Virus record (IMG/VR): IMGVR_UViG_3300028107_000045
From: an uncultured virus (IMG/VR IMGVR_UViG_3300028107_000045)
Taxonomy: Duplodnaviria > Heunggongvirae > Uroviricota > Caudoviricetes
Length of the DNA: 64,000 nt
Strand: one strand, 5' to 3'
Both the position numbers and the translations under genes were made by a program. The notes under the pieces were generated by a model. The model was not told where the DNA came from. It did no database searches and saw only the letters and a program-made list of their open reading frames with translations. Shown in pieces: positions 8,418 to 51,695 of the stretch; position 1 is the stretch's first letter; every line of letters starts with the position of its first letter.

Positions 8418-10094
8418 ATGCAAGGTTTTGATCGCAACACCGGTATTGTTGATTACTTGACCATCGAAAAGACTGGCGAGATCGTAGACAACGTAGTTGA
8501 CCGTGTATACAAAGCCGTGGTTGGTACCATGGGCCCTAACGGCAAGTACGGTGCGATCACTCTGGGTACTCGCGTTAAGGTTACCAAAGACGGTGTTACC
8601 GTGGCGCGGTCTATCAAATTCAACGACCCACGTTATGAGGTGGTAAACCGTATCGTCACCGAGGCCCCGCTCAAGACTGACGAAGAGTGCGGTGACGGCA
8701 CCACTACCACCATGCTGATGCTGGCAGAGTTCTACAAGCTGTATCGTGAATTCGACAGCTATCATGAGCAGGCATTCCTTGACCGTCTGGTGACTCTGTG
8801 GATCAACGAACTCCAGGAAGCCACCATTCACATCGACACGCTTGACCCGCGTCTGTACGACCTGGCCCTGACCTCGGCCAACCACGACACAGCGCTGGCG
8901 CACCTGATCACCGATCTGTACCGTGAAGACCCAACCAGTTTCCCGGTGATCGAACTGATCCAAGGTGTGGAAGCCGAAGACAAGGTGCTGCGTACCGACG
9001 GTCTGACCACCGGCGCTGTGTACAGCAACCACCAGTATGCTCCTGGCGGTCGTCAGCAGGGTGAGTACACCCACTACGTCCCGCTGGTACTGGACATGGC
9101 GTTCCGTGAACCAGACATGCAGAAGCTGGCTAACCTGTTGACTGAACTGACCAAACAGTTCGGTGGCGGAGCGGATGGTAAACCGGTACAAGTCATTCTG
9201 ATTGCACGCGCGTTTGAGTCCACTCTGGACAACATCATGCTGCAGTTCAACAGTGGCATGCGCCAGAAAGCACAACAGTCCAACACTGAGCCGATGTTGC
9301 AGTTCGTGGCTTGCCGTGTAAACGGTGCTGGCGGTTCTATTGGTAGTTACATGCTGCAAGACTTGGCGATCATGCTGGGTTGCCCTATGGTGGCTACTGT
9401 AGAGCAAGCACTGACTGCTGAGCTCAGTGTGCGTACCGACAAGTTCGTTATCAGTCAGGCTCGTTCTCTGCTGACTCCTAGCGACGAATCCAAGGTACGT
9501 ATCGCTGAACGTGTCAAAGAAGTCCAGGAAGTCCTGGGTACCTACGACGGCAAGAACCGCTACAATACCCGGGCTCGTTTTGACGAGCGTCGTATCCGTC
9601 AGATGACCGGTAAACTGGTCAGCATCTGGGTAGGTGGTGAAACCGAGTCGGATATCATCGAGCGTAAGGACCGCTTCGAAGACGTGGTGAAAGCTGTGCG
9701 TTCGGCACTGACCAACGGTATCGTTCCAGGGGTAGGTACTACTCTGATCGCTACCGCGGACAAACTGCCTCAACTCCTGACAGAAGAAGTCTCCGATCCA
9801 GAAGACGGCGGGTTCCCAAGCACCTGGAAAGAGATCCTCGGTGGTGTTATCGAGATCTCCCACAAGCAGAACGAGATCCTGATGGAAGGTGTTAACCGCG
9901 AGGACTTTGCTCCTGGCGTGGTGCTTAACCTGGCTAACGGTCGTATTGGCGATCCGGTCACCCTCGGTATCTACGACACGGCGTTTGCTTCTATCACTGC
10001 TCTGCGTGGTGGTGCTCGTGCAGCGAAGATGTTGGCTAACCTGCGTTCGATCATGGTGTCGAACAAACTCGATGCAGTAAGCCTGGGTAACTAA
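8418..10094 (+). CDS. groEL: phage-encoded GroEL-like chaperonin (EL gp146/OBP gp246 type)
   Basis: TMGPNG, TKDGVTVARSI, ECGDGTTT, VGGETE..ERKDRFED, GIVPGVG and GIYD motifs; 558 aa; no GGM tail. Confidence 0.97.
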   Translation: MQGFDRNTGIVDYLTIEKTGEIVDNVVDRVYKAVVGTMGPNGKYGAITLGTRVKVTKDGVTVARSIKFNDPRYEVVNRIVTEAPLKTDEECGDGTTTTMLMLAEFYKLYREFDSYHEQAFLDRLVTLWINELQEATIHIDTLDPRLYDLALTSANHDTALAHLITDLYREDPTSFPVIELIQGVEAEDKVLRTDGLTTGAVYSNHQYAPGGRQQGEYTHYVPLVLDMAFREPDMQKLANLLTELTKQFGGGADGKPVQVILIARAFESTLDNIMLQFNSGMRQKAQQSNTEPMLQFVACRVNGAGGSIGSYMLQDLAIMLGCPMVATVEQALTAELSVRTDKFVISQARSLLTPSDESKVRIAERVKEVQEVLGTYDGKNRYNTRARFDERRIRQMTGKLVSIWVGGETESDIIERKDRFEDVVKAVRSALTNGIVPGVGTTLIATADKLPQLLTEEVSDPEDGGFPSTWKEILGGVIEISHKQNEILMEGVNREDFAPGVVLNLANGRIGDPVTLGIYDTAFASITALRGGARAAKMLANLRSIMVSNKLDAVSLGN

Positions 10095-36370: not shown

Positions 36371-36521
36371 AGTGGTTTTCCTGATTGCTGGTCGCCTTAA
36401 GGGTTTGGGCATAACATTGCTTAAAAATAGAATTGGTTATTAGGGTTAAAAAATAAAAGTAATATTTAAAAACCGTGTTATAATTCTTTAGACTAATTTT
36501 GTCGGGGTAGGGGGTTTTATA

Positions 36522-36782
36522 GTGAGCTCAGTTGTATCACTCAGGAACAAGTATACGTTAGAACACCGTACAGTGCTATTGAAGGATATTGCTGAGGCAC
36601 AGTTTGAATACCTTAGATTGGCTAAGGAAGCAGCTGATTGCCCTTGGTGGCGTCCAGGTAAACGCACTTTCTTAATACAGGAAGCTAGCAAGATAATGAG
36701 TAACATCAAAAAAGCTATAGCGTTGTATAACAGTCAATACAAGCAACCGTTAATCGTAATGGCCAGAATTACGACCGGTTAA
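36522..36782 (+). CDS. small protein, N-terminal motif family (MSSVVSL)
   Basis: GTG start after a G-rich RBS-like stretch. Confidence 0.65.
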   Translation: MSSVVSLRNKYTLEHRTVLLKDIAEAQFEYLRLAKEAADCPWWRPGKRTFLIQEASKIMSNIKKAIALYNSQYKQPLIVMARITTG

Positions 36783-36819
36783 TTTCTGGAAAGTCTTGGA
36801 TCTATATTACCTGGATGAA
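36778..36819 (+). promoter_or_regulatory. phiKZ-type early promoter
   Basis: GTTAA-N20-TATATTAC. Confidence 0.75.
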
Positions 36820-36865
36820 TGTAGCAGTAGATCATTTGATCTACTAATCACTTGAGGGTAAGGTA

Positions 36866-37126
36866 ATGACCAACGTAATCAATTTTGCTGATCGTATAAA
36901 TGCAATGGCTATGGCTAAAGAAGCCGCACGCGTAGCACGCCGTGATCGGGTTATCGCGGTGTATGAACTGAATTGCGATATCGAAAGGGTTGAACATCAG
37001 ATCCAGACTTTCATGGATCTCAGCAAAGAGTTTACCCGTGCGGACGATAAGTTCATTGCGCTGTCCATGGCTAATGACGAACGTCGTAAACTGGCTGAAC
37101 TCCGTCAACAACTGGCTGCTATGTAA
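36866..37126 (+). CDS. small helical protein, motif family (MTNVINF)
   Basis: GAGG/AAGG RBS; coiled-coil-like. Confidence 0.8.
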   Translation: MTNVINFADRINAMAMAKEAARVARRDRVIAVYELNCDIERVEHQIQTFMDLSKEFTRADDKFIALSMANDERRKLAELRQQLAAM

Positions 37127-37140
37127 TCGAGGTAATCGTA

Positions 37141-37464
37141 ATGGGTAAAGTAGTTAACATCGGTACTGATCTTTCGCTACACAGTGCCAAGAACGAAATG
37201 ATCACGGTAAGGGATGCACAACGAGCCTACCGTGAAAAGTCCACAAGGGTGCGTAACGAGATCCTTGAACGCCAAATCGAAGCTGCTAAGAAGTCTTGTG
37301 CGGCTTTGAAAGCATTTGGTGCTTTGTCCCCTCAGTACGCCGAAGCTCAAGAAGAAGCTCAAAAGGTGGTTGCTGAGGGTAGGGCTATTAATGATGCCTT
37401 GCGCGAGGAGTTCCGCGAGTTAATGGCTCATCACGATGATGTGAAAGCCAGGCGCGGTCTGTAG
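37141..37464 (+). CDS. small helical protein, motif family (MGKVVNI)
   Basis: GAGGT RBS; coiled-coil-like. Confidence 0.8.
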   Translation: MGKVVNIGTDLSLHSAKNEMITVRDAQRAYREKSTRVRNEILERQIEAAKKSCAALKAFGALSPQYAEAQEEAQKVVAEGRAINDALREEFRELMAHHDDVKARRGL

Positions 37465-37470
37465 TAAGCT

Positions 37471-37497
37471 TGGGGACCTTCGGGTCCTCAATTTTTT
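37471..37497 (+). terminator. Rho-independent terminator with cUUCGg loop
   Basis: TGGGGACC-TTCG-GGTCCTCA-ATTTTTT. Confidence 0.85.
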
Positions 37498-37520
37498 GTA
37501 TACAGCTAAGGAGTAGCAGT

Positions 37521-37775
37521 ATGTACCCGGTAATTGATATTAACGAGTCTCTTGAACGTGCCCGTATGGTTAGCCAAGTGATGGCGCTAACTATTTCTGG
37601 TAATTCGTATTACGTCCAGTCGACTATGATATCGGACCCTGAGCTCGCTGCTGAGTTGCATAAGCAAGGTACTGTTTGTGTAAACAAGGCTAATCAAATT
37701 CGTGATGCTTTCTGGACTAAGTTCCCTAAGGCATTTATCTCTCCTACTTGTCCGTGGATGAACCGTCATGGGTAA
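37521..37775 (+). CDS. small protein, motif family (MYPVIDI)
   Basis: AAGGAG RBS before ATG 37521. Confidence 0.75.
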   Translation: MYPVIDINESLERARMVSQVMALTISGNSYYVQSTMISDPELAAELHKQGTVCVNKANQIRDAFWTKFPKAFISPTCPWMNRHG

Positions 37776-38070
37776 TGTATTGAGTATTTACACGGCGAAG
37801 GCCAGGCGTGAAATAAACCGTATCTTGGCAGAGTACGGTGGGTTACCAGGATTCCTTTTACCGGATCTGGTAGAGACCCAGATAATTTCAGTCAAGTATG
37901 CTTTGGGTTGCTGGCGCTCGATGCAAGGGGGTGCGGTTATCTCAGATGAGTTCCAGTCTATTGTCAGTACTGCTGTAGAAGAAAACGAAGGGATGCTCCA
38001 AGCTTTCGAAGACTTGGGTGCAAAGTTCAAACGGGATTACGACAACGAGATCCCTTATACCAACATTTGA
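37768..38070 (+). CDS. small protein, motif family (MGNVLSI)
   Basis: 8-nt overlap with the upstream gene. Confidence 0.75.
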   Translation: MGNVLSIYTAKARREINRILAEYGGLPGFLLPDLVETQIISVKYALGCWRSMQGGAVISDEFQSIVSTAVEENEGMLQAFEDLGAKFKRDYDNEIPYTNI

Positions 38071-38077
38071 GGTGTGT

Positions 38078-38287
38078 ATGGGCCAAGTTGTCCAAATGGA
38101 TGCTTTTCGTAGGAAGCGCAATGTAGTAGCGCTTAGCCGTATTGAAGAACTTGAGCGTACGGTTGCTTACTGGGATCGTATCTTGCGTACATCGCCTGAT
38201 GTGCACACGCGTGAGCAGGCGGCTATTCGTGGCGGCCAAATCAAAATCGAGATCGGTGAAATCAAAAGTCAATTGGGGATTAAGTAA
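38078..38287 (+). CDS. small helical protein, motif family (MGQVVQMDAFRRK)
   Basis: GAGGTG RBS before ATG 38078. Confidence 0.75.
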   Translation: MGQVVQMDAFRRKRNVVALSRIEELERTVAYWDRILRTSPDVHTREQAAIRGGQIKIEIGEIKSQLGIK

Positions 38288-38625
38288 TGGGTCCTGAAAT
38301 CCGTAACCACATCAGCTATGTAGAGCGTTGGATTGAAGCGCATCAGAAAGTTTTGGAAGAGCTGAAAAAGCACGACCCGGAACTCAATGATCTGATAATC
38401 GAGTGCTTTAAGCACGGGGTTGGCGTACAGGTAGATCATCAAGTACGCCCTAACTGCCAGGTTATGGAATCCCATGGTGTTACCATTCGCGTGTTCAGCA
38501 AATGTGATGTTACTTGGCAATGCATGATGGGGCGCAAAAATGCTTTCCTTGGTGATCGGGTAATTACTCAACACAACAGTCTGGCTGAGGTTATTCAGCA
38601 CATCAAGGAAAAGGTTATTACCTGA
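38287..38625 (+). CDS. hypothetical protein
   Basis: TAATG coupling; 112 aa. Confidence 0.75.
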   Translation: MGPEIRNHISYVERWIEAHQKVLEELKKHDPELNDLIIECFKHGVGVQVDHQVRPNCQVMESHGVTIRVFSKCDVTWQCMMGRKNAFLGDRVITQHNSLAEVIQHIKEKVIT

Positions 38626-38819
38626 TGGGTAAGGTCCTGCAATTTACCGGCGACAATTTCCGTGCTGAAATGCGTAAGCTGGAGAACCAGCAGGCCGAGC
38701 TCTTGACTAAGTACCGCCAAGAGCAGGATCCGGTTGAGCGTCAGCGTTTGCATGATGAGTACGGTCGTCTTAGTAATGAACGTTTTGCTTTGGCTCTCGA
38801 AGCTATGGGGCGTAAATAA
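38625..38819 (+). CDS. small helical protein, motif family (MGKVLQF)
   Basis: TGATG coupling; helical-hairpin-like. Confidence 0.75.
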   Translation: MGKVLQFTGDNFRAEMRKLENQQAELLTKYRQEQDPVERQRLHDEYGRLSNERFALALEAMGRK

Positions 38820-39142
38820 TGCGTAAAAGTAAAGAACAGAAACAACAGGAAGCACTGGCGCGTAAGCGTGAGTTGTTTGACGAGAAGTCCTCGTGGTACC
38901 GCCGCTTCCAGGAAGGTGGTGACTTCTACAACGACAACTGCGCCAAGTACGGACTGGCTTATGCTCAGCAACGTAAGAACGAAGTTAGCACGTCGTTTGC
39001 CCGTTACTTGGTAGAAGCCCAGTTGGACTACCACGGTAACCCTGCGCAACCTGTTACCAAAAAGGTAGATTGGGATGGTATCAAAAAGACTCCCAATAAT
39101 GCCGCCATCCATTCCTACTTGGCTGAACTGGAGAACGAGTAA
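38819..39142 (+). CDS. hypothetical protein
   Basis: TAATG coupling; N-terminus MRKSKEQKQQEALAR. Confidence 0.75.
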   Translation: MRKSKEQKQQEALARKRELFDEKSSWYRRFQEGGDFYNDNCAKYGLAYAQQRKNEVSTSFARYLVEAQLDYHGNPAQPVTKKVDWDGIKKTPNNAAIHSYLAELENE

Positions 39143-39336
39143 TGGCTAAGAAATCCTTGGAAGATCGTTTTGCCGCAATCCAACAATACTCTCGTGAGAA
39201 CCACGTTTCCCTCGATATGGGTTACGATCCAATCCCTGACAAGTGGGTTGCCTGGGATGGCGAAGAGCAACTCACTGACCCGTGCGACGGTTTCGAAGAA
39301 CTGATCGAAGCGCTGGAAGCGCACTGGCAGTTGTAA
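39142..39336 (+). CDS. small acidic hypothetical protein
   Basis: TAATG coupling. Confidence 0.7.
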   Translation: MAKKSLEDRFAAIQQYSRENHVSLDMGYDPIPDKWVAWDGEEQLTDPCDGFEELIEALEAHWQL

Positions 39337-39659
39337 TGGGGATGGTAAAAGCGGTACTCAATGGTGTTGTGGTGGTTGGTGAAGAGGAAGACTTAAACCA
39401 TATCAAGTATGGGTATGAGGGTAGTGTAAACGGTAAATGGGGTCCTTATGAACCAGCTACCGAACACTACGCTGTGGTCTCTTTCCAAACCCATGACCAC
39501 CTGCAAGAACAGTTCCGTTCTATTTGGGCTGAACGCAAAGAGGACCTACCGGCAGTATATAAGGCCCTCCAAGCAACTGATTGTGATTTCATGATGGATC
39601 ATTCTTTTGAATTGGGTGTAACCATCTTGGAATACCTGGTAACACTACCTGAAGAGTGA
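39336..39659 (+). CDS. hypothetical protein
   Basis: TAATG coupling at 39336. Confidence 0.7.
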   Translation: MGMVKAVLNGVVVVGEEEDLNHIKYGYEGSVNGKWGPYEPATEHYAVVSFQTHDHLQEQFRSIWAERKEDLPAVYKALQATDCDFMMDHSFELGVTILEYLVTLPEE

Positions 39660-39678
39660 CCAGTGAAAGGAGAGCGCC

Positions 39679-39837
39679 ATGCGCGTTAAAATGACGAAGC
39701 AGGAAGCTCTCCAATTACTGGAGGGCGCTGTTAGACAGAAAGAGCAATTGCATCCGGAAGACGAGTTAGTGTACTTGGTAGATAACCAAATCATGATCCT
39801 CGAAAACTTGATACGTGCTTTTGATAAATACCCGTAA
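39679..39837 (+). CDS. small hypothetical protein (52 aa, absent from ORF track)
   Basis: AAGGAG RBS; MRVKMTKQEALQLLEG...RAFDKYP; ends at the palindrome. Confidence 0.7.
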   Translation: MRVKMTKQEALQLLEGAVRQKEQLHPEDELVYLVDNQIMILENLIRAFDKYP

Positions 39838-39839
39838 TA

Positions 39840-39871
39840 CTTACCCTCTAGCCCTAGGGCTAGAGGGTAAG
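39840..39871. terminator. perfect 32-bp palindrome, bidirectional terminator
   Basis: CTTACCCTCTAGCCCTAGGGCTAGAGGGTAAG between convergent genes, followed by TTTATTTTT. Confidence 0.8.
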
Positions 39872-39892: not shown

Positions 39893-40720
39893 TTAGCATT
39901 CGCCGTTATGCGTGACTAGGTAACTACCAATCACATAAAGCTTTTGATCGTCACCGATGCTAATGCACACAGTTTCTACCGGGTCGTCTCTGGTAATGCC
40001 TGTCAGTTTCAGTGACTTGGTGCGCTGGTGTATGGTATCGCTAACCAGGTTCTCTGGGTTACGGATATCTCGTTGCAGCACACGCAGGATATATGGGTCT
40101 TGTGCTTCCATATACACAATCCCACCTAATGACCAGATCAGGTCTCTCAGGGTGTATGCGGCTGTGTCTGACGTGGTGGAGATCAAGACGCCATTGTCAG
40201 TGTGGGTGGCGTCCTGGTATTCGATCATTGTTAGGGCGATCGTTAACCGGTCTTCGTAATGCAACTCTTCCACTTTGGGGAACGTGATTATGCCAGTTAA
40301 TAACTGGTGAGCTATATCTATTAGCTCTTGGTCACTCAAACAAGCTTGCTGTACACCAAGGCGACCTACCAGAGGAATACTGTACTCGAAGTCACTAAAG
40401 TGGTTCAAGATATCCAAGGTAGTAGTGACCATGGGGGTAAGCTGGTTGTCTTCGTAAACCGCCCACTGGTGTAATGGGTGGGATTCGGCTTCCCTGCCGT
40501 CTTCGAACAGGAACTTGTAGTTATCGGTGACCCCTTGGGGGTAAATACCGGTAACGGGTACGTAGTTGCCATCCGGAGTAACTACCAAGTCATTGAGTTT
40601 CAGTAAACCTAAAGTGGTCCAACCACCAGGTATTTTTACTCTGGTGTGAAGCGGCATTGCCAGACCTGGGCGTGCAGTGTATTTATTAATCGTAGACATA
40701 TTGTATAGTTTAGAGTCCAT
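39893..40720 (-). CDS. free-standing intein-like (HINT) protein with degenerate endonuclease region
   Basis: Block A AMPLHTRV; block B ESHPLHQW; block F VETVCISI; block G LVTHN; flanks of only ~20 aa and 3 aa. Confidence 0.88.
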   Translation of the reverse strand: MDSKLYNMSTINKYTARPGLAMPLHTRVKIPGGWTTLGLLKLNDLVVTPDGNYVPVTGIYPQGVTDNYKFLFEDGREAESHPLHQWAVYEDNQLTPMVTTTLDILNHFSDFEYSIPLVGRLGVQQACLSDQELIDIAHQLLTGIITFPKVEELHYEDRLTIALTMIEYQDATHTDNGVLISTTSDTAAYTLRDLIWSLGGIVYMEAQDPYILRVLQRDIRNPENLVSDTIHQRTKSLKLTGITRDDPVETVCISIGDDQKLYVIGSYLVTHNGEC

Positions 40721-40753
40721 AATAACCACAAGTCCTTTTTAGAGGTTGTATTG

Positions 40754-46571: not shown

Positions 46572-48083
46572 ATGGCAGATAAGCCCGAAGACCTCAAAGG
46601 CAGTAAGAACCTAGTAGTCTACATGACTGCTCGGTCCTTGCAACGAGGCAGGAAACACCTGAATTATGCTGGGGCACATGGTTACAGTTATACCATCGCC
46701 AACGAAGGCAAGAAAAAGCTGGCTAAAGACGTCGCTACTACAAGTGGGTACTACACTGGTAACAACCAGCGCGCTAACACCGTAGTAGTGGTAGACGACA
46801 TCCTTAGTCTGACAGTAGCTAACACACACTCAGTGTTCACGGCGGTACTGCGTGCATTTGAGGCCGTGCTCGCACTGTACCTGGAACCAGAGTCCCCTTA
46901 TAAGAACCTTTGCATTATTACGCCCCACAAGGAGCTACAAGAGGTTTGGAAGCTAAAGGATGACAAAGTACAGGTTGGTTACCGAATCAACCGTATGGAG
47001 CTTACGCAGAAGGATGTAGACGTACTGCAAGAGCTTTTGGTTACGATTAGTAAGTTCAAAGAGACCGATAGCAGGATTATCTTTGACTTTAGCGGTAGTG
47101 CGGAAGGGGGTACTGGTAATAAACAAGCACACAAGTGTTTGGAGATCGCCGAGGTCATCAGTTTGTTTGGTGAACCTAATACCACTGACTTGCATGTAAT
47201 CCCGCGCAAGGTCTACGAGAACCCTGAATCGGACTTCAACAAGATCGTCTCGGCTAGCCGTTGGTATTTCGGAAGTGTGAGTGCTGAGGAGTTTTACGAT
47301 AAGCAACACGGGTACCGTAAGTACGGGTTTGGTAAGGTAGAGCCAGACAAGAACTATTATGGTAAGCAGACTCCCGACGTTACTTACTCGGCATTGTTTA
47401 CCAAGGAGCCGATTGCGCTGCTGGACAAGCTCTATGAGTTTACCAGACGCAAGATCGACAACCCTGATGGTTACTTGGTAGCTGGTGATCTCAACCACCT
47501 AACCAGTAAAGAAGTAGCGCGGATGGTTGACACGCATCCTGCTATCCGTGAGGGCAACAACTTGGTGTCGCCTGTTACTAAGGGCAACGGTAAACCGGTA
47601 TTGATTGAACTGATCAGCCCGGTGTTGATGTCTTACCGTATTCGTGACGCTTTGGCAGAGCTCGATGTGATCCTTAACTCGTACAAGGCTAAAGATGAGT
47701 CCAACGTCTTTGGTTACTTGAAGTTTTACGAGATCACGGATTTGATCTATACCAAGGAAGCCAACAAGAAGGGTGACGTTAAGGTCAAGTTGCATTCTGA
47801 CTTTAACCAGCTTAAGTCAGTGTTTAAAGTACCGGTAGAACACCCTAACGCGGTTAAGCCTGTACCGTTGACTATTAATGTTGGTTATGACATACCTGAG
47901 CGCAATGCTTTCAACTCAGTGGAAGACCCCGAGGTAAAGGTTTGGGTAGCAGTAGACACGCGTAACAGCAAAGGTCTGCGTTACTGCACGTTGGTAGAGA
48001 CTACTGATTGGATTTACATCCATACGTCAGCAGTAGCTAACCTGCGGGTATTGAACCTGGCTGAGTTGGGTCAAAAGAAATAA
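46572..48083 (+). CDS. RNase H-like protein (phiKZ gp155-like), catalytic motifs diverged
   Basis: GAHGYSY strand, GNKQAH in place of GNxxAD, GKVEPD..YYGKQTPD; synteny with the RecA-like gene. Confidence 0.6.
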   Translation: MADKPEDLKGSKNLVVYMTARSLQRGRKHLNYAGAHGYSYTIANEGKKKLAKDVATTSGYYTGNNQRANTVVVVDDILSLTVANTHSVFTAVLRAFEAVLALYLEPESPYKNLCIITPHKELQEVWKLKDDKVQVGYRINRMELTQKDVDVLQELLVTISKFKETDSRIIFDFSGSAEGGTGNKQAHKCLEIAEVISLFGEPNTTDLHVIPRKVYENPESDFNKIVSASRWYFGSVSAEEFYDKQHGYRKYGFGKVEPDKNYYGKQTPDVTYSALFTKEPIALLDKLYEFTRRKIDNPDGYLVAGDLNHLTSKEVARMVDTHPAIREGNNLVSPVTKGNGKPVLIELISPVLMSYRIRDALAELDVILNSYKAKDESNVFGYLKFYEITDLIYTKEANKKGDVKVKLHSDFNQLKSVFKVPVEHPNAVKPVPLTINVGYDIPERNAFNSVEDPEVKVWVAVDTRNSKGLRYCTLVETTDWIYIHTSAVANLRVLNLAELGQKK

Positions 48084-50640: not shown

Positions 50641-51012
50641 ATGACACCTGTCCAAAGTAGTAACGTAATCCTGGTGGTTGCTGATAGCAACTTCTGTAGT
50701 CTGTGCGAAAACGTGGACGACTATATCGTTCGCCTGCACAAGGTGTTGTCCGATCGACAGTCCGCTTATACGTTGATGACTGTAAGCGGTAAGTACGGTA
50801 TCAGTGCGTTGGATGAAACCGTTAGTGCTCTGCCGGTAGATGACAAGAACAAAACTGTGTTCGGTCAAAACCTGGAAAACATTTCCGGTCTGTTCGACGA
50901 ACTCCTGGTACTGACCAACACCGTAAGTGACCCGTATATCAACGTTGCCAAAGAGGCAATGGGTAACGCACACAAAACCATCACTACCTACGGTTACCGG
51001 AGAAAGCAATAA
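50641..51012 (+). CDS. hypothetical protein, possibly degenerate SLOG/YspA-like fold
   Basis: Alternating beta/alpha pattern VILVVADSNF..LMTVSG..FDELLVL; fold tentative. Confidence 0.6.
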   Translation: MTPVQSSNVILVVADSNFCSLCENVDDYIVRLHKVLSDRQSAYTLMTVSGKYGISALDETVSALPVDDKNKTVFGQNLENISGLFDELLVLTNTVSDPYINVAKEAMGNAHKTITTYGYRRKQ

Positions 51013-51695
51013 TGGCCAGTAACCGCAAGGCCTTTGAAGCCTACGTGCTGGACTTCATGGGCGAAGTAACCAAGGGTGGCGGTAATAAGGTTATTTACGA
51101 GCGCTTGTTTAAAGCCCTCAACAACGAACAGTTAGAAGCCCTTGTAGTAAAGATGGAGCAGGGTATGCCTCTGAGCATCTGGGTTTCTAACTGGAACCGT
51201 AAAGAAATGATCGAATACGAACGTATCTTGCGGTTGTCCAAGAAATACGGTGTGGTTATCGAACAGCAGTTGATCGTTTACGACGCAGACACCGGCATCA
51301 AGTCGATGACTCCACACACGGCTATTACTGGTCTGGTACGTTTCCGTAAGCAACGTCAGATGCAGGTTACCAAGTTTGGTGCTGCCGCGAACGATTACAG
51401 TATCGACGACCTCACTGGTCAGGTAATGGGTGATTCCCGTTCTACTGGTATTAGTCAGCCAGAGATTACCGTACTCCGTAACTTGGGGTTGGATATCATG
51501 GCTAACGAATTGTACAACGTTAAGGGCGGTGACTTGGATGCGTTGAAGCATTACAAGAACGAACTGTTGACCACTGGTAAGACCAACACCAACGCTAGCT
51601 TACAGCGTGGCACAATCGCCAAGGTATTGTCTTCGGTCTACCATCTTTTCCGTGGGCGGCACTTGGACTCTAACTTTAACAAAAGGCTTGGGTAA
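51012..51695 (+). CDS. virion RNA polymerase beta subunit, C-terminal part (phiKZ gp149-like)
   Basis: RKQRQ..K, IDDLTGQV.G.S...IS.PE...L...G.....E...VKGGD matches the RpoB C-terminal region. Confidence 0.9.
   Translation: MASNRKAFEAYVLDFMGEVTKGGGNKVIYERLFKALNNEQLEALVVKMEQGMPLSIWVSNWNRKEMIEYERILRLSKKYGVVIEQQLIVYDADTGIKSMTPHTAITGLVRFRKQRQMQVTKFGAAANDYSIDDLTGQVMGDSRSTGISQPEITVLRNLGLDIMANELYNVKGGDLDALKHYKNELLTTGKTNTNASLQRGTIAKVLSSVYHLFRGRHLDSNFNKRLG

What the first reader, a model, noticed from the sequence alone, without database searches (positions are those of the whole stretch)
36522..38819. Array of seven small early proteins sharing only an N-terminal M-x-x-V-[VIL]-x-[FILM] peptide: candidate ClpX adaptor/degron cassette
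Seen: seven of eight consecutive genes begin MSSVVSL, MTNVINF, MGKVVNI, MYPVIDI, MGNVLSI, MGQVVQM and MGKVLQF. Their bodies (64-107 aa, mostly helical) look unrelated. I saw no full match at other N-termini in the window. Six lie downstream of a consensus early promoter (36803). The 38078 protein carries the motif twice (QVVQMDAFRRK, then NVVAL). Known: QVVQMDAFRRK resembles the ClpX N-domain-binding tail of alphaproteobacterial SspB (KIVSLDQFRKK), and lambda O has an N-terminal ClpX signal (TNTAKILNF). Inference: this is a modular system in which a common docking peptide engages one host hub, plausibly ClpXP, and variable helical domains pick different targets for destruction or inhibition. 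Alternatively the peptide is a shared degron that times early proteins.
Basis: partly seen in the sequence, partly recalled or inferred. Interest (0 to 1): 0.82.

Follow-up and report, generated by a model that had tools for sequence, protein, structure and literature searches.

The report
Shared N-terminal tag, jumbo-phage early proteins
Seven small, otherwise unrelated proteins in one gene array of an uncultured soil giant phage all begin with the same seven-residue peptide, which relatives including Pseudomonas phage EL also keep, so it looks like a common address label whose reader (perhaps the host ClpX protease machine) is still unproven.

Summary
Seven of eight consecutive genes (36522-38819, + strand) start M-x-x-V-[VIL]-x-[FILM]. 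No other called gene start in the window does. Chance gives about 1e-17 to 1e-16. The window is an EL-like nucleus-forming jumbo phage.

The tag recurs in the syntenic array of six distant relatives and in phage EL (gp160; gp162 loosely), on non-homologous two-helix bodies. It is kept in six of seven ortholog families, but not in that of the 37521 gene. Codons vary at wobble positions, so selection acts on the protein.

The 38078 protein belongs to a conserved 70-residue family in which M1, G2 and V4 are invariant. Its second "NVVAL" copy is not conserved.

The ClpX reading is only weakly supported. The tag resembles the lambda O degron core (PMC12723719, methods). A co-fold with the ClpX N-domain scored 0.54 against 0.01 for the best control, which the tool rates "weak support".

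This scan noted the same tag earlier in a related genome (e1-5367661). My two literature searches found no description.

The parts
36522..36782 (+). g1, 86 aa, GTG start, MSSVVSL tag
   Evidence: 6 nt / 1 aa differences to L007. No Pfam or PHROG hit.
36803..36810 (+). TATATTAC promoter-like motif (context gatcTATATTACct)
   Evidence: One of 4 copies, all intergenic and co-oriented. Resembles phage EL's annotated promoters (AAACCTACATTAT) and the AR9 early consensus (PMC5312081, passages).
36866..37126 (+). g2, 86 aa, MTNVINF tag
37141..37464 (+). g3, 107 aa, MGKVVNI tag; two long helices
   Evidence: only relatives are 100% and 92% identical. AF2: H7-61 and H64-105, residues 1-6 coil, first block pLDDT 50.
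37470..37491 (+). terminator-like hairpin followed by a T run, between g3 and g4
   Evidence: -14.8 kcal/mol, z = -3.4
37521..37775 (+). g4, 84 aa, MYPVIDI tag (tag not kept in orthologs)
37768..38070 (+). g5, 100 aa, MGNVLSI tag
   Evidence: 84% relative starts MGNVLSF. The 35% ortholog in L057 starts MTAKVLDF.
38078..38287 (+). g6, 69 aa, MGQVVQMDAFRRKR; member of a conserved ~70-aa family; helical hairpin
   Evidence: AF2 pLDDT 88, H2-38 and H42-66, first block 67.
38287..38625 (+). g7, 112 aa, MGPEIRN, no tag
   Evidence: 6 nt / 0 aa differences
38625..38819 (+). g8, 64 aa, MGKVLQF tag
38819..39837 (+). g9-g12 (38819-39142, 39142-39336, 39336-39659, 39679-39837): untagged array members, several conserved in relatives
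   Evidence: g9 matches phrog_38094; g10 ortholog in L002
39841..39872 (.). perfect palindrome with a 14-bp stem, between convergent genes; end of the array
   Evidence: -28.5 kcal/mol, z = -4.6

Best explanation
The heptapeptide M-[G/S/N/T]-polar-V-[V/I/L]-polar-[I/L/M/F] is a short linear motif at the free, flexible N-terminus of small two-helix proteins. These proteins are encoded in one fast-evolving, probably early-transcribed array of EL-like nucleus-forming jumbo phages.

Shown:
- The tag is non-random.
- It is selected at the protein level.
- It is conserved across phages whose core proteins are only 28-40% identical.
- It sits on bodies with no detectable homology to each other.
- It is confined to this array.

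Inferred: all tagged proteins use it as a common handle for one conserved partner. My committed guess for that partner is the host ClpX unfoldase. The tag would act as an N-terminal tether or degron, like the lambda O tag or, in reverse polarity, the SspB XB tail. The tagged proteins would then be held at ClpXP, where they are either short-lived themselves or bring whatever their variable helices bind. Which of these outcomes applies is open. The confidence given (0.35) is for the whole statement including ClpX; that the tag is a selected docking or targeting peptide of some kind I put at about 0.7.
For: Non-random and array-specific:
- 7 of 8 consecutive genes carry it. No other called gene start in the window fits strictly. 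Chance is about 1e-17 to 1e-16.
- In phage EL, 2 of 201 annotated starts fit a relaxed pattern, and both lie in the syntenic gp159-gp164 array (against the tables).
- In the complete 238-kb relative G003, the only tagged starts are in the array.

Clade-wide on different bodies:
- Loci L009, L014, L015, L045, L053, L057 and EL each hold 1-2 strict members plus 0-3 relaxed or shifted ones, per the tables; three more starts that its caller missed come.
- hhalign of the bodies gives a probability of 3% or less.

Protein-level selection:
- V4 uses GTA, GTT and GTC, and G2 uses GGT, GGC and GGA, among 15 members.
- There are 5 silent and 0 replacement changes in tag codons of near-identical strains.
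- The tag is kept in ortholog pairs of 35-48% identity in five families.
- M1, G2 and V4 are three of only six invariant columns in 23 members of the g6 family.

Flexible end: the first ten residues have pLDDT 67 (g6) and 50 (g3), against 84-95 in the helices.

ClpX lead:
- The lambda O degron TNTAKILNFGR is a ClpX N-terminal signal bound in the open ClpX channel (PMC12723719, methods and section 2.2). Its core K-I-L-N-F-G parallels g3's K-V-V-N-I-G and g2's N-V-I-N-F-A.
- Co-fold of the g6 alignment with 2 x ClpX(1-62) of P. aeruginosa gave ipSAE 0.54 against 0.01 for the best of 3 controls. The tool's verdict is "weak support".
- That mark was reached by 116 of 157 solved complexes and 2 of 215 mismatched pairs. 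At 0.60 or under it was reached by only 18 of those 157 solved complexes and by both mismatches that passed.
- The runs agree in at least 91% of contacts and the partner's pLDDT is at least 85. No contacts were given. The pass may reflect likeness to the solved ZBD-XB complex.
- Fusing the SspB XB peptide to a protein or to a bait peptide is enough to drive ClpXP-dependent degradation in E. coli (PMC12373786, passages).
- The complete relative G003 encodes no PF00004 or PF07724 AAA+ ATPase, so an unfoldase reader would have to be the host's.
Against: - No experiment, and no contact map, places the tag itself on ClpX. The tool states that a pass at 0.54 is more often wrong than right unless the guess was likely beforehand.
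- The host is unknown. P. aeruginosa ClpX was a stand-in.
- The tag lacks the T-A-K part of the lambda O signal. As I recall it, the published N-motif-1 consensus is not met in register.
- The basic residue at position 3 is not conserved (K, Q, N, E, S, T, P).
- The SspB XB tail is C-terminal; this tag is N-terminal.
- The 37521 protein's orthologs lack the tag, so the tag is dispensable for at least one body.
- Other putative early operons lack it.
- A paper on phiKZ-host interaction proteomics does not mention ClpX or ClpP (PMC10449902, term search), though phiKZ may not have the tag at all.
Confidence: 0.35

Rival explanations
1. The tag is a docking peptide for a different conserved partner. 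This could be a phage component typical of this clade: the chimallin shell or its import machinery, the GroEL-like chaperonin (whose host counterpart grips a G-G-I-V-L loop of GroES; recalled), or the HslV-family peptidase working with host HslU. It could also be another host hub.
For: - The tag is restricted to the EL-like clade. The syntenic place in Erwinia phage RisingSun has no such array.
- The clade carries a GroEL-like chaperonin behind the same TATATTAC motif.
- It also carries 1-3 HslV-family peptidase genes (phrog_1040, E = 1e-22 to 6e-39) without any phage AAA+ partner.
- All the evidence that the tag is a selected linear motif applies equally here.
Against:
- The chimallin termini of EL show no likeness to the tag.
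- A review states that cargo reaches the phage nucleus through surface residues of the folded protein, not a terminal signal (PMC12908238, passage in the import section).
Confidence: 0.3
2. The tag is what remains of common descent. The array grew by duplication of a g6-like gene, the bodies diverged beyond recognition, and the N-terminus stayed for a structural reason of its own, such as capping or oligomerising the helical hairpin. There would be no shared external partner.
For: - The two bodies that I folded, g6 and g3, are two-helix proteins, and all tagged proteins are small (64-107 aa in the window).
- The g6 family is the one deeply conserved member.
- Full-length hhalign gives 14-25% probability for g3, g8 and three relatives' proteins. 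All of that signal comes from the N-terminus.
Against: - Once the first 10-14 residues are removed, nothing remains (probability 3% or less).
- The tag is low-confidence or coil in the models rather than packed.
- It tolerates a shift of one residue in either direction (MTAKVLDF, MKIVNLKKF). That fits a linear motif better than a fold element.
- Even under common descent, the selective retention of just these residues needs a function.
Confidence: 0.15
3. The tag is a capsid- or inner-body-targeting sequence, like that of the T4 internal proteins. Diverse anti-defence proteins would share only an N-terminal packaging signal and be injected with the DNA.
For: [quoted passage not shown]
- The array is hypervariable. 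g3 and g5 have only relatives of 84% identity or more among 5.8 billion clusters.
- The array lies next to virion genes.
Against: - The array stands behind an early-type promoter motif and diverges from the structural genes.
- By eye, no consistent protease site follows the tag. The S/A/G-x-E rule for phiKZ-type head proteases is recalled.
- EL gp159-gp164 are not among the proteins that the EL record labels virion structural.
Confidence: 0.08
4. The similarity works at the level of mRNA or translation initiation, or is a recombination linker for swapping gene cassettes, and the peptide is a by-product.
For: - Three starts share ATGGGTAA-GT.
- The genes are tightly packed, with overlapping stops and starts.
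Against: - Wobble positions vary freely while the residues stay.
- The tag is kept between orthologs of 35-48% identity and in 23 g6-family members down to 24% identity.
- Nucleotide identity does not extend beyond what the shared residues impose.
Confidence: 0.05

Closest known systems
Lambda O N-terminal ClpX degron (N-motif 1; tag TNTAKILNFGR as used in PMC12723719)
   Same: A short unstructured peptide at the extreme N-terminus of a phage early protein. It has a hydrophobic pair, then a polar residue, then a hydrophobic residue (K-I-L-N-F against K-V-V-N-I and N-V-I-N-F). It is read by a host AAA+ machine.
   Different: The tag here starts three residues closer to the Met and lacks T-N-T-A. 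Its basic residue is not conserved. It sits on many unrelated proteins of one array. No degradation data exist.
SspB XB tail on the ClpX zinc-binding N-domain (PDB 2DS8 as cited in PMC12373786), and synthetic XB-bait degraders (CLIPPERs)
   Same: A constant short docking peptide joined to a variable binding part. The co-fold of the g6 family with the ClpX N-domain passed weakly (0.54 against 0.01 for the best control).
   Different: XB is C-terminal and follows a long disordered linker. Here the tag is N-terminal and runs straight into helix 1. There is no SspB-like substrate-binding domain. Whether the helices bind targets is unknown.
Capsid-targeting sequence of T4 internal proteins (PMC3012670)
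   Same: The only published phage case I know of in which highly diverse, fast-evolving proteins share nothing but an N-terminal address peptide.
   Different: The T4 signal is removed by the head protease and the proteins are packaged. Here the promoter motif suggests early expression, and no cleavage site or virion evidence was found.
Phage EL gp160 and gp162 (hypothetical proteins of the gp159-gp164 array)
   Same: gp160 (MSNVIDMFSWRDSK...) matches the g6-family profile at 88% hhalign probability and carries the tag. gp162 (MSNVMHV...) carries a relaxed tag. The array has the same position and promoter arrangement.
   Different: EL has two tagged genes of six; this phage has seven of twelve. 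No function is recorded for either EL protein.

Membership tests
g6 family (conserved ~70-aa two-helix protein of EL-like jumbo phages; unnamed) | Full-length profile match with N-terminal MGQV[VI]x[FLM]xx[FYW][KR] and the R-E-x-A-[AV]-I motif in helix 2 | tested here: met
   For the 38078 protein only. There are 10 orthologs of 62-70% identity and a further 9 representatives of 69-86 aa matched from residue 1. Invariant columns are M1 G2 V4 R45 E46 I50. The other six tagged proteins do not match once the tag is removed.
ClpX N-terminal degron, lambda O type (N-motif 1) | Unstructured peptide at the extreme N-terminus | tested here: met
   The tag occupies residues 2-7. The first block has pLDDT 50 (g3) and 67 (g6).
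ClpX N-terminal degron, lambda O type (N-motif 1) | Sequence fits the published consensus (polar-T/hydrophobic-hydrophobic-basic-hydrophobic; recalled from Flynn et al. 2003, not seen here) | tested here: inconclusive
   Only the K-I-L-N-F part of the lambda O tag (PMC12723719) is mirrored. The register differs by three residues and the basic residue varies.
ClpX N-terminal degron, lambda O type (N-motif 1) | ClpXP-dependent degradation conferred by the peptide | not testable with these tools
   Needs stability assays in wild-type and clpX/clpP hosts.
SspB-type adaptor (XB tether) | Docking peptide binds the ClpX zinc-binding N-domain | tested here: inconclusive
   Co-fold scored 0.54 against 0.01 for the best of 3 controls. 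The verdict was weak support and no contacts were given.
SspB-type adaptor (XB tether) | SspB substrate-binding domain (Pfam PF04386) with a C-terminal tail | tested here: not met
   None of the eight array proteins has a significant Pfam or PHROG hit; g2 has only two weak sub-threshold Pfam matches, neither to SspB. PF04386 is absent from G003. The tag is N-terminal.
T4-type capsid-targeting sequence | Shared N-terminal peptide on otherwise diverse proteins | tested here: met
T4-type capsid-targeting sequence | Head-protease cleavage site after the signal, and presence in virions | tested here: inconclusive
   By eye, no consistent site follows the tag (cleavage rule recalled). The EL record does not label gp159-gp164 as virion proteins. 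No proteome data were seen.
Ribbon-helix-helix or Phd/YefM-type small regulators (N-terminal strand) | Family profile match | tested here: not met
   No Pfam hit at E <= 0.01 other than two sub-threshold chance-level hits for g2. The models are helical hairpins without strands.

The most novel reading that the evidence does not exclude
The array is a natural library of phage "degraders". Each protein joins one constant N-terminal handle for a host AAA+ protease (ClpXP) to a different small helical bait. The phage could then send a changing set of host proteins, such as defence factors, to destruction early in infection. This would be a natural counterpart of the synthetic XB-bait peptides shown to work in E. 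coli (PMC12373786). The hypervariability of the baits would reflect an arms race with hosts.
Probability: 0.12. Interest if true: 0.9.

Novelty: new variant of a known kind. Interest (0 to 1): 0.66.

Why it matters
Early genes of nucleus-forming jumbo phages are mostly ORFans with no handle for study. A seven-residue tag that marks a whole set of them gives a direct experimental entry. It is conserved from uncultured soil phages to the cultured Pseudomonas phage EL.

That plan has so far been shown only with engineered peptides.

Tried and rejected
- Nucleotide searches of the array against 50,697 phage records found nothing, by megablast or blastn.
- Pfam and PHROGs gave no significant hit for any of the eight proteins; the only rows were two weak sub-threshold Pfam matches for g2. 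The ESM Atlas gave only unnamed clusters under 0.85 for g6. A PDB profile search gave coiled-coil noise only, best E = 0.19.
- No whole genome is held for the window. The only near record, G001 = G002, is identical in the array.
- An IMG/VR search with the g6 alignment returned only the window's own contig.
- A degenerate DNA pattern for the g6-type start found 18 stretches in IMG/VR.
  - 3 are real family members in 184-236-kb contigs.
  - 5 belong to a 65-aa frame. In the two loci that I opened (L041, L052) it lies inside a 585-aa gene in another frame, so I rejected it as spurious.
  - The remaining 10 are short, lack a ribosome site or sit inside long frames.
- I looked for a phage protein whose terminus mimics the tag. 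EL's chimallin termini show nothing. A few C-termini fit loosely, for example the ribonuclease-like protein at 46572-48083, which ends NLRVLNLAELGQKK. I did not follow these up.
- EL gp086 as an SspB-like adaptor: the match to phrog_8945 is weak (E = 1.8e-4). It has no Pfam hit, no PDB sequence hit, and no homologue in G003, G002 or the window. It therefore cannot explain the tag in this phage.
- RNA evidence. 20 soil metatranscriptome runs hold the stretch as contigs. In the four runs that I laid, contigs of up to 242,788 bases run through it. DNA carry-over is therefore likely and transcription is not shown.
- Literature. Searches for a description of the tag found none (listings and abstracts). 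A search for TATATTAC gave only unrelated papers. The phiKZ early-promoter consensus that I recall was not confirmed from any text.
- The papers that might give the Caulobacter SspB tail were not held.
Full report
WHAT THE WINDOW IS

The window belongs to an uncultured soil jumbo phage of the EL-like, nucleus-forming kind.
- It encodes a GroEL-like chaperonin (8418-10094, phrog_5725, E = 2e-101), a split RNA polymerase beta subunit (51012-51695) and phiKZ/EL-type virion proteins.
- Its best matches among 50,697 phage records are Pseudomonas phage EL and its kin, at about 34-42% protein identity. EL itself encodes a nuclear shell protein and PhuZ.
- DNA-level searches of the array against the phage records find nothing.
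- A 99-kb IMG/VR contig is identical in this region. Two 243-kb metagenome contigs are about 98% identical.

THE OBSERVATION

Seven of eight consecutive + strand genes start with M-x-x-V-[VIL]-x-[FILM]. They begin at 36522, 36866, 37141, 37521, 37768, 38078 and 38625. The gene at 38287 starts MGPEIRN. Two of the starts (37521, 38078) are internal ATGs of longer TTG/GTG frames, but they carry the better ribosome sites.

The frames are real genes. In the two 98% relatives, silent changes dominate: 57 nt but 10 aa differences over g1-g10 in L007, and 68 nt but 17 aa over g1-g12 in L008. The five changes that fall in tag codons of tagged genes are all silent.

Across the window, 36 start codons in six frames fit the pattern, but only these seven sit at plausible gene starts. 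None of the other starts among my 75 gene calls fits strictly. My simple caller itself missed g1, g4 and g6, so those counts are lower bounds for the array only.

The four-residue core occurs at 0.27-0.32% of positions in four phage proteomes. Seven of eight by chance is therefore about 5e-18 to 1e-16.

THE BODIES

- No pair of the twelve array proteins scores below E = 0.1 in BLASTP.
- None of the eight has a significant Pfam or PHROG hit; g2 has only two weak sub-threshold Pfam matches.
- A profile of the 38078 family matches none of the others once the first 10-14 residues are cut away (hhalign probability 3% or less). With the N-terminus left on, g3, g8 and three relatives' proteins reach 14-25%. 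What likeness there is lies in the tag.
- AlphaFold2 models of g6 (pLDDT 88) and g3 (pLDDT 80) are two-helix hairpins. Their first ten residues are the least confident part, at 67 and 50, and residues 1-6 of g3 are coil.

RELATIVES

I fetched the syntenic region next to the tail-fibre module from distant relatives, using the conserved 202-aa neighbour gene and a degenerate pattern for the g6-type start. Tagged genes found:
- L009 (= G003, 238 kb, complete): MGEVVQM, MGTVTSI, MRIVNLKEF
- L014: MGKVVPL, MGKVVNI, MNNVIQF, MSNVMHL
- L015: MGQVLQL, MGEVVQY
- L045: MNKVVAL, MGQVIYM, MKIVNLKKF, MGVAIQM
- L053: MGQVIDF, MNKILQF, MGKVVYI
- L057: MGQVVDF, MGVVIDF, MTAKVLDF, MEKVTAI, MCKVTGI
- Phage EL: gp160 MSNVIDM, gp162 MSNVMHV

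The neighbour protein of these phages is only 28-40% identical to the window's.

Genome-wide the tag stays in the array.
- In EL, 40 start codons with 40 or more codons downstream fit a relaxed pattern. Only two are annotated gene starts, and both lie in gp159-gp164.
- In the complete G003, the only tagged called starts are the array's.
- Erwinia phage RisingSun, a more distant relative, has no such array at the corresponding place.

CONSERVATION IN ORTHOLOGS

The 38078 protein has 10 orthologs of 62-70% identity, in which M1 G2 Q3 V4 V5 M7 F10 never change. A profile search of 1.8 billion cluster representatives gave 17 proteins at E <= 0.001.
- I fetched 11 of them. All 11 start MG[QDRN]V[VIT]x[FLMI]xx[FYW][KR].
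- I did not fetch the other five non-self hits. They are 343-4612 aa proteins with internal coiled-coil matches.
- In a 23-sequence alignment reaching down to 24% identity, the only invariant columns are M1, G2, V4, R45, E46 and I50.

Five further families keep the tag between orthologs of 35-48% identity. One does so with a shift of one residue to the right (g5 against L057). Another carries it one residue to the left in both members (MRIVNLKEF / MKIVNLKKF).

The family of the 37521 protein does not keep it: MYPVIDI against MDSVKVE at 41% identity and MEVPNVQ at 23%.

By contrast g3 and g5 have no relatives below 84% identity among 5.8 billion clusters. The array therefore mixes a conserved core (g6, g9, g10, g11, g12) with fast-turnover ORFans.

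Codon use shows that selection is on the residues. V4 is GTA, GTT or GTC, and G2 is GGT, GGC or GGA, among 15 members.

- The second "NVVAL" in the 38078 protein differs in all 10 orthologs.
- The promoter claim is only partly right. TATATTAC at 36803 is one of four copies in the window, all intergenic and co-oriented; one stands before the chaperonin gene.
  - It resembles EL's annotated promoters (AAACCTACATTAT).
  - EL also has TATATTAC before its chaperonin gene and inside its array.
  - It also resembles the AR9 early consensus AAATATATATTAT (PMC5312081, passages).
  - However, a terminator-like hairpin follows g3, and g1 lies upstream of the motif.
- Genes behind the other three motifs carry no tag. 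The tag is therefore a property of this array, not of early genes in general.

WHAT THE TAG DOES

Taken together, the facts above point to a short linear motif used as a common handle.

- The lambda O tag is confirmed as a ClpX N-terminal degron, with the sequence TNTAKILNFGR. It binds in the open ClpX channel (PMC12723719; abstract, methods and section 2.2 read). Its K-I-L-N-F-G core parallels K-V-V-N-I-G (g3) and N-V-I-N-F-A (g2). The register and the upstream residues differ.
- A co-fold of the g6 alignment with two copies of residues 1-62 of P. aeruginosa ClpX scored ipSAE 0.54 against 0.01 for the best of three controls.
  - The tool's verdict is "weak support". The mark was reached by 116 of 157 solved complexes and 2 of 215 mismatched pairs.
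  - At 0.60 or under, it was reached by only 18 of those 157 solved complexes and by both mismatches that passed.
  - The runs agree in at least 91% of contacts and the partner's pLDDT is at least 85.
  - No contacts were given, and the pass may reflect memory of the solved ZBD-XB complex.
- The SspB tail is known to tether cargo to the ClpX N-domain (bioRxiv 10.1101/2022.11.06.515074, introduction). Fusing that tail to a protein or a bait peptide suffices for ClpXP-dependent degradation (PMC12373786, passages). The "constant handle plus variable binder" plan is therefore mechanistically feasible.
- The complete relative G003 encodes no PF00004 or PF07724 AAA+ ATPase, so an unfoldase reader would be the host's.

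Against this: there is no direct evidence, the host is unknown, the polarity is opposite to XB, and the fit to the published degron class is imperfect. I put ClpX at about one in three.

RIVALS

- A phage-encoded reader is nearly as likely. The clade-specific chaperonin and the HslV-family peptidases are conserved in the clade (phrog_1040). A review says that nuclear import in these phages does not use terminal signals (PMC12908238), which lowers the import idea but does not exclude it.
- Common descent with a purely structural role is possible. It does not explain why only these residues survive, or why they tolerate a one-residue shift.
- The T4 internal-protein capsid-targeting sequence is the closest published analogue in design (PMC3012670). 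The early-type promoter and the lack of a cleavage site or virion annotation speak against it here.
- An mRNA-level explanation is contradicted by the wobble variation.

EARLIER NOTES OF THIS SCAN

A look-up by sequence showed that the same tag was reported on a related genome (e1-5367661), with the same leading candidate. That note gave me the CLIPPER paper. Another note (e1-3451693) prompted the check for a phage AAA+ ATPase, which was negative here. These are unchecked AI notes, and I do not count them as support.

NOVELTY AND INTEREST

Two literature searches (listings and abstracts) found no description of the tag or of EL gp160/gp162. The design (shared terminal address on diverse phage proteins) has precedents, so I class it as a new variant of a known kind. 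It is well supported as an observation, clade-wide, present in a cultured phage and directly testable. Its mechanism is open.

Noticed in passing
window 8364, 22196, 36803, 53571 (+): Four exact TATATTAC motifs, each preceded by C-C or T-C. All are intergenic and point at the next gene. One stands 54 bases before the GroEL-like chaperonin gene. Phage EL has the same motif before its chaperonin gene (149107) and twice inside its gp159-gp164 array.
   Followed up: partly
window 36514-39869: In one soil metatranscriptome run (X10), a separate 3,356-base contig spans exactly this stretch at depth 425, against 209 and 198 for the flanking contigs. Its left end at 36514 is joined to sequencing-adapter letters. 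The other three runs read straight through. This is a weak hint of a transcript unit that would include g1 and end at the palindrome. 36514 is only 8 bases before g1's GTG.
   Followed up: partly
window 36476-36484 (+): TGTTATAAT, an extended -10-like element, lies upstream of g1, in a phage group thought to be independent of host RNA polymerase. It was read from the sequence and not assessed further.
   Followed up: no
L019:47597-48064 (phage EL gp086): EL gp086 is annotated as a putative stringent starvation protein. It matches the PHROG family "SspB-like" weakly (E = 1.8e-4) and ends in a tail ...SPFKVIEGGKD after an acidic, proline-rich linker. It has no Pfam or PDB sequence hit, and no homologue in G003, G002 or the window.
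   Followed up: partly
L035:13681-14202 (-) (G002, outside the window); L028:9265-9792 and 8611-9090 (-) (G003); EL gp015: HslV-family peptidase genes (phrog_1040, E = 1e-22 to 6e-39) are conserved in the clade, in two adjacent copies in G003. The complete G003 genome has no PF00004 or PF07724 AAA+ ATPase.
   Followed up: partly
window 39340-39659 (g11): The 243-kb contig behind L007 aligns at 98% on both sides of this stretch but not across it. The contig behind L008 is collinear. g11 therefore seems replaced or strongly diverged in one near-identical strain.
   Followed up: no
window 39893-40729 (-): This 278-aa protein's first ~100 residues match short internal pieces of PHROG families for large terminase, primase and helicase loader (E = 2e-9 to 3e-5). 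That pattern is typical of an intein or Hint-type domain rather than of those enzymes.
   Followed up: no
L040, L041, L046, L052, L054 (low-GC viral contigs): A 65-aa frame starting MGQVISL..., with a perfect AGGAGG site, recurs in five contigs. In the two that I opened (L041, L052) it lies inside a 585-aa gene in another frame. It is either a conserved embedded frame or a chance product of that gene's conservation.
   Followed up: partly
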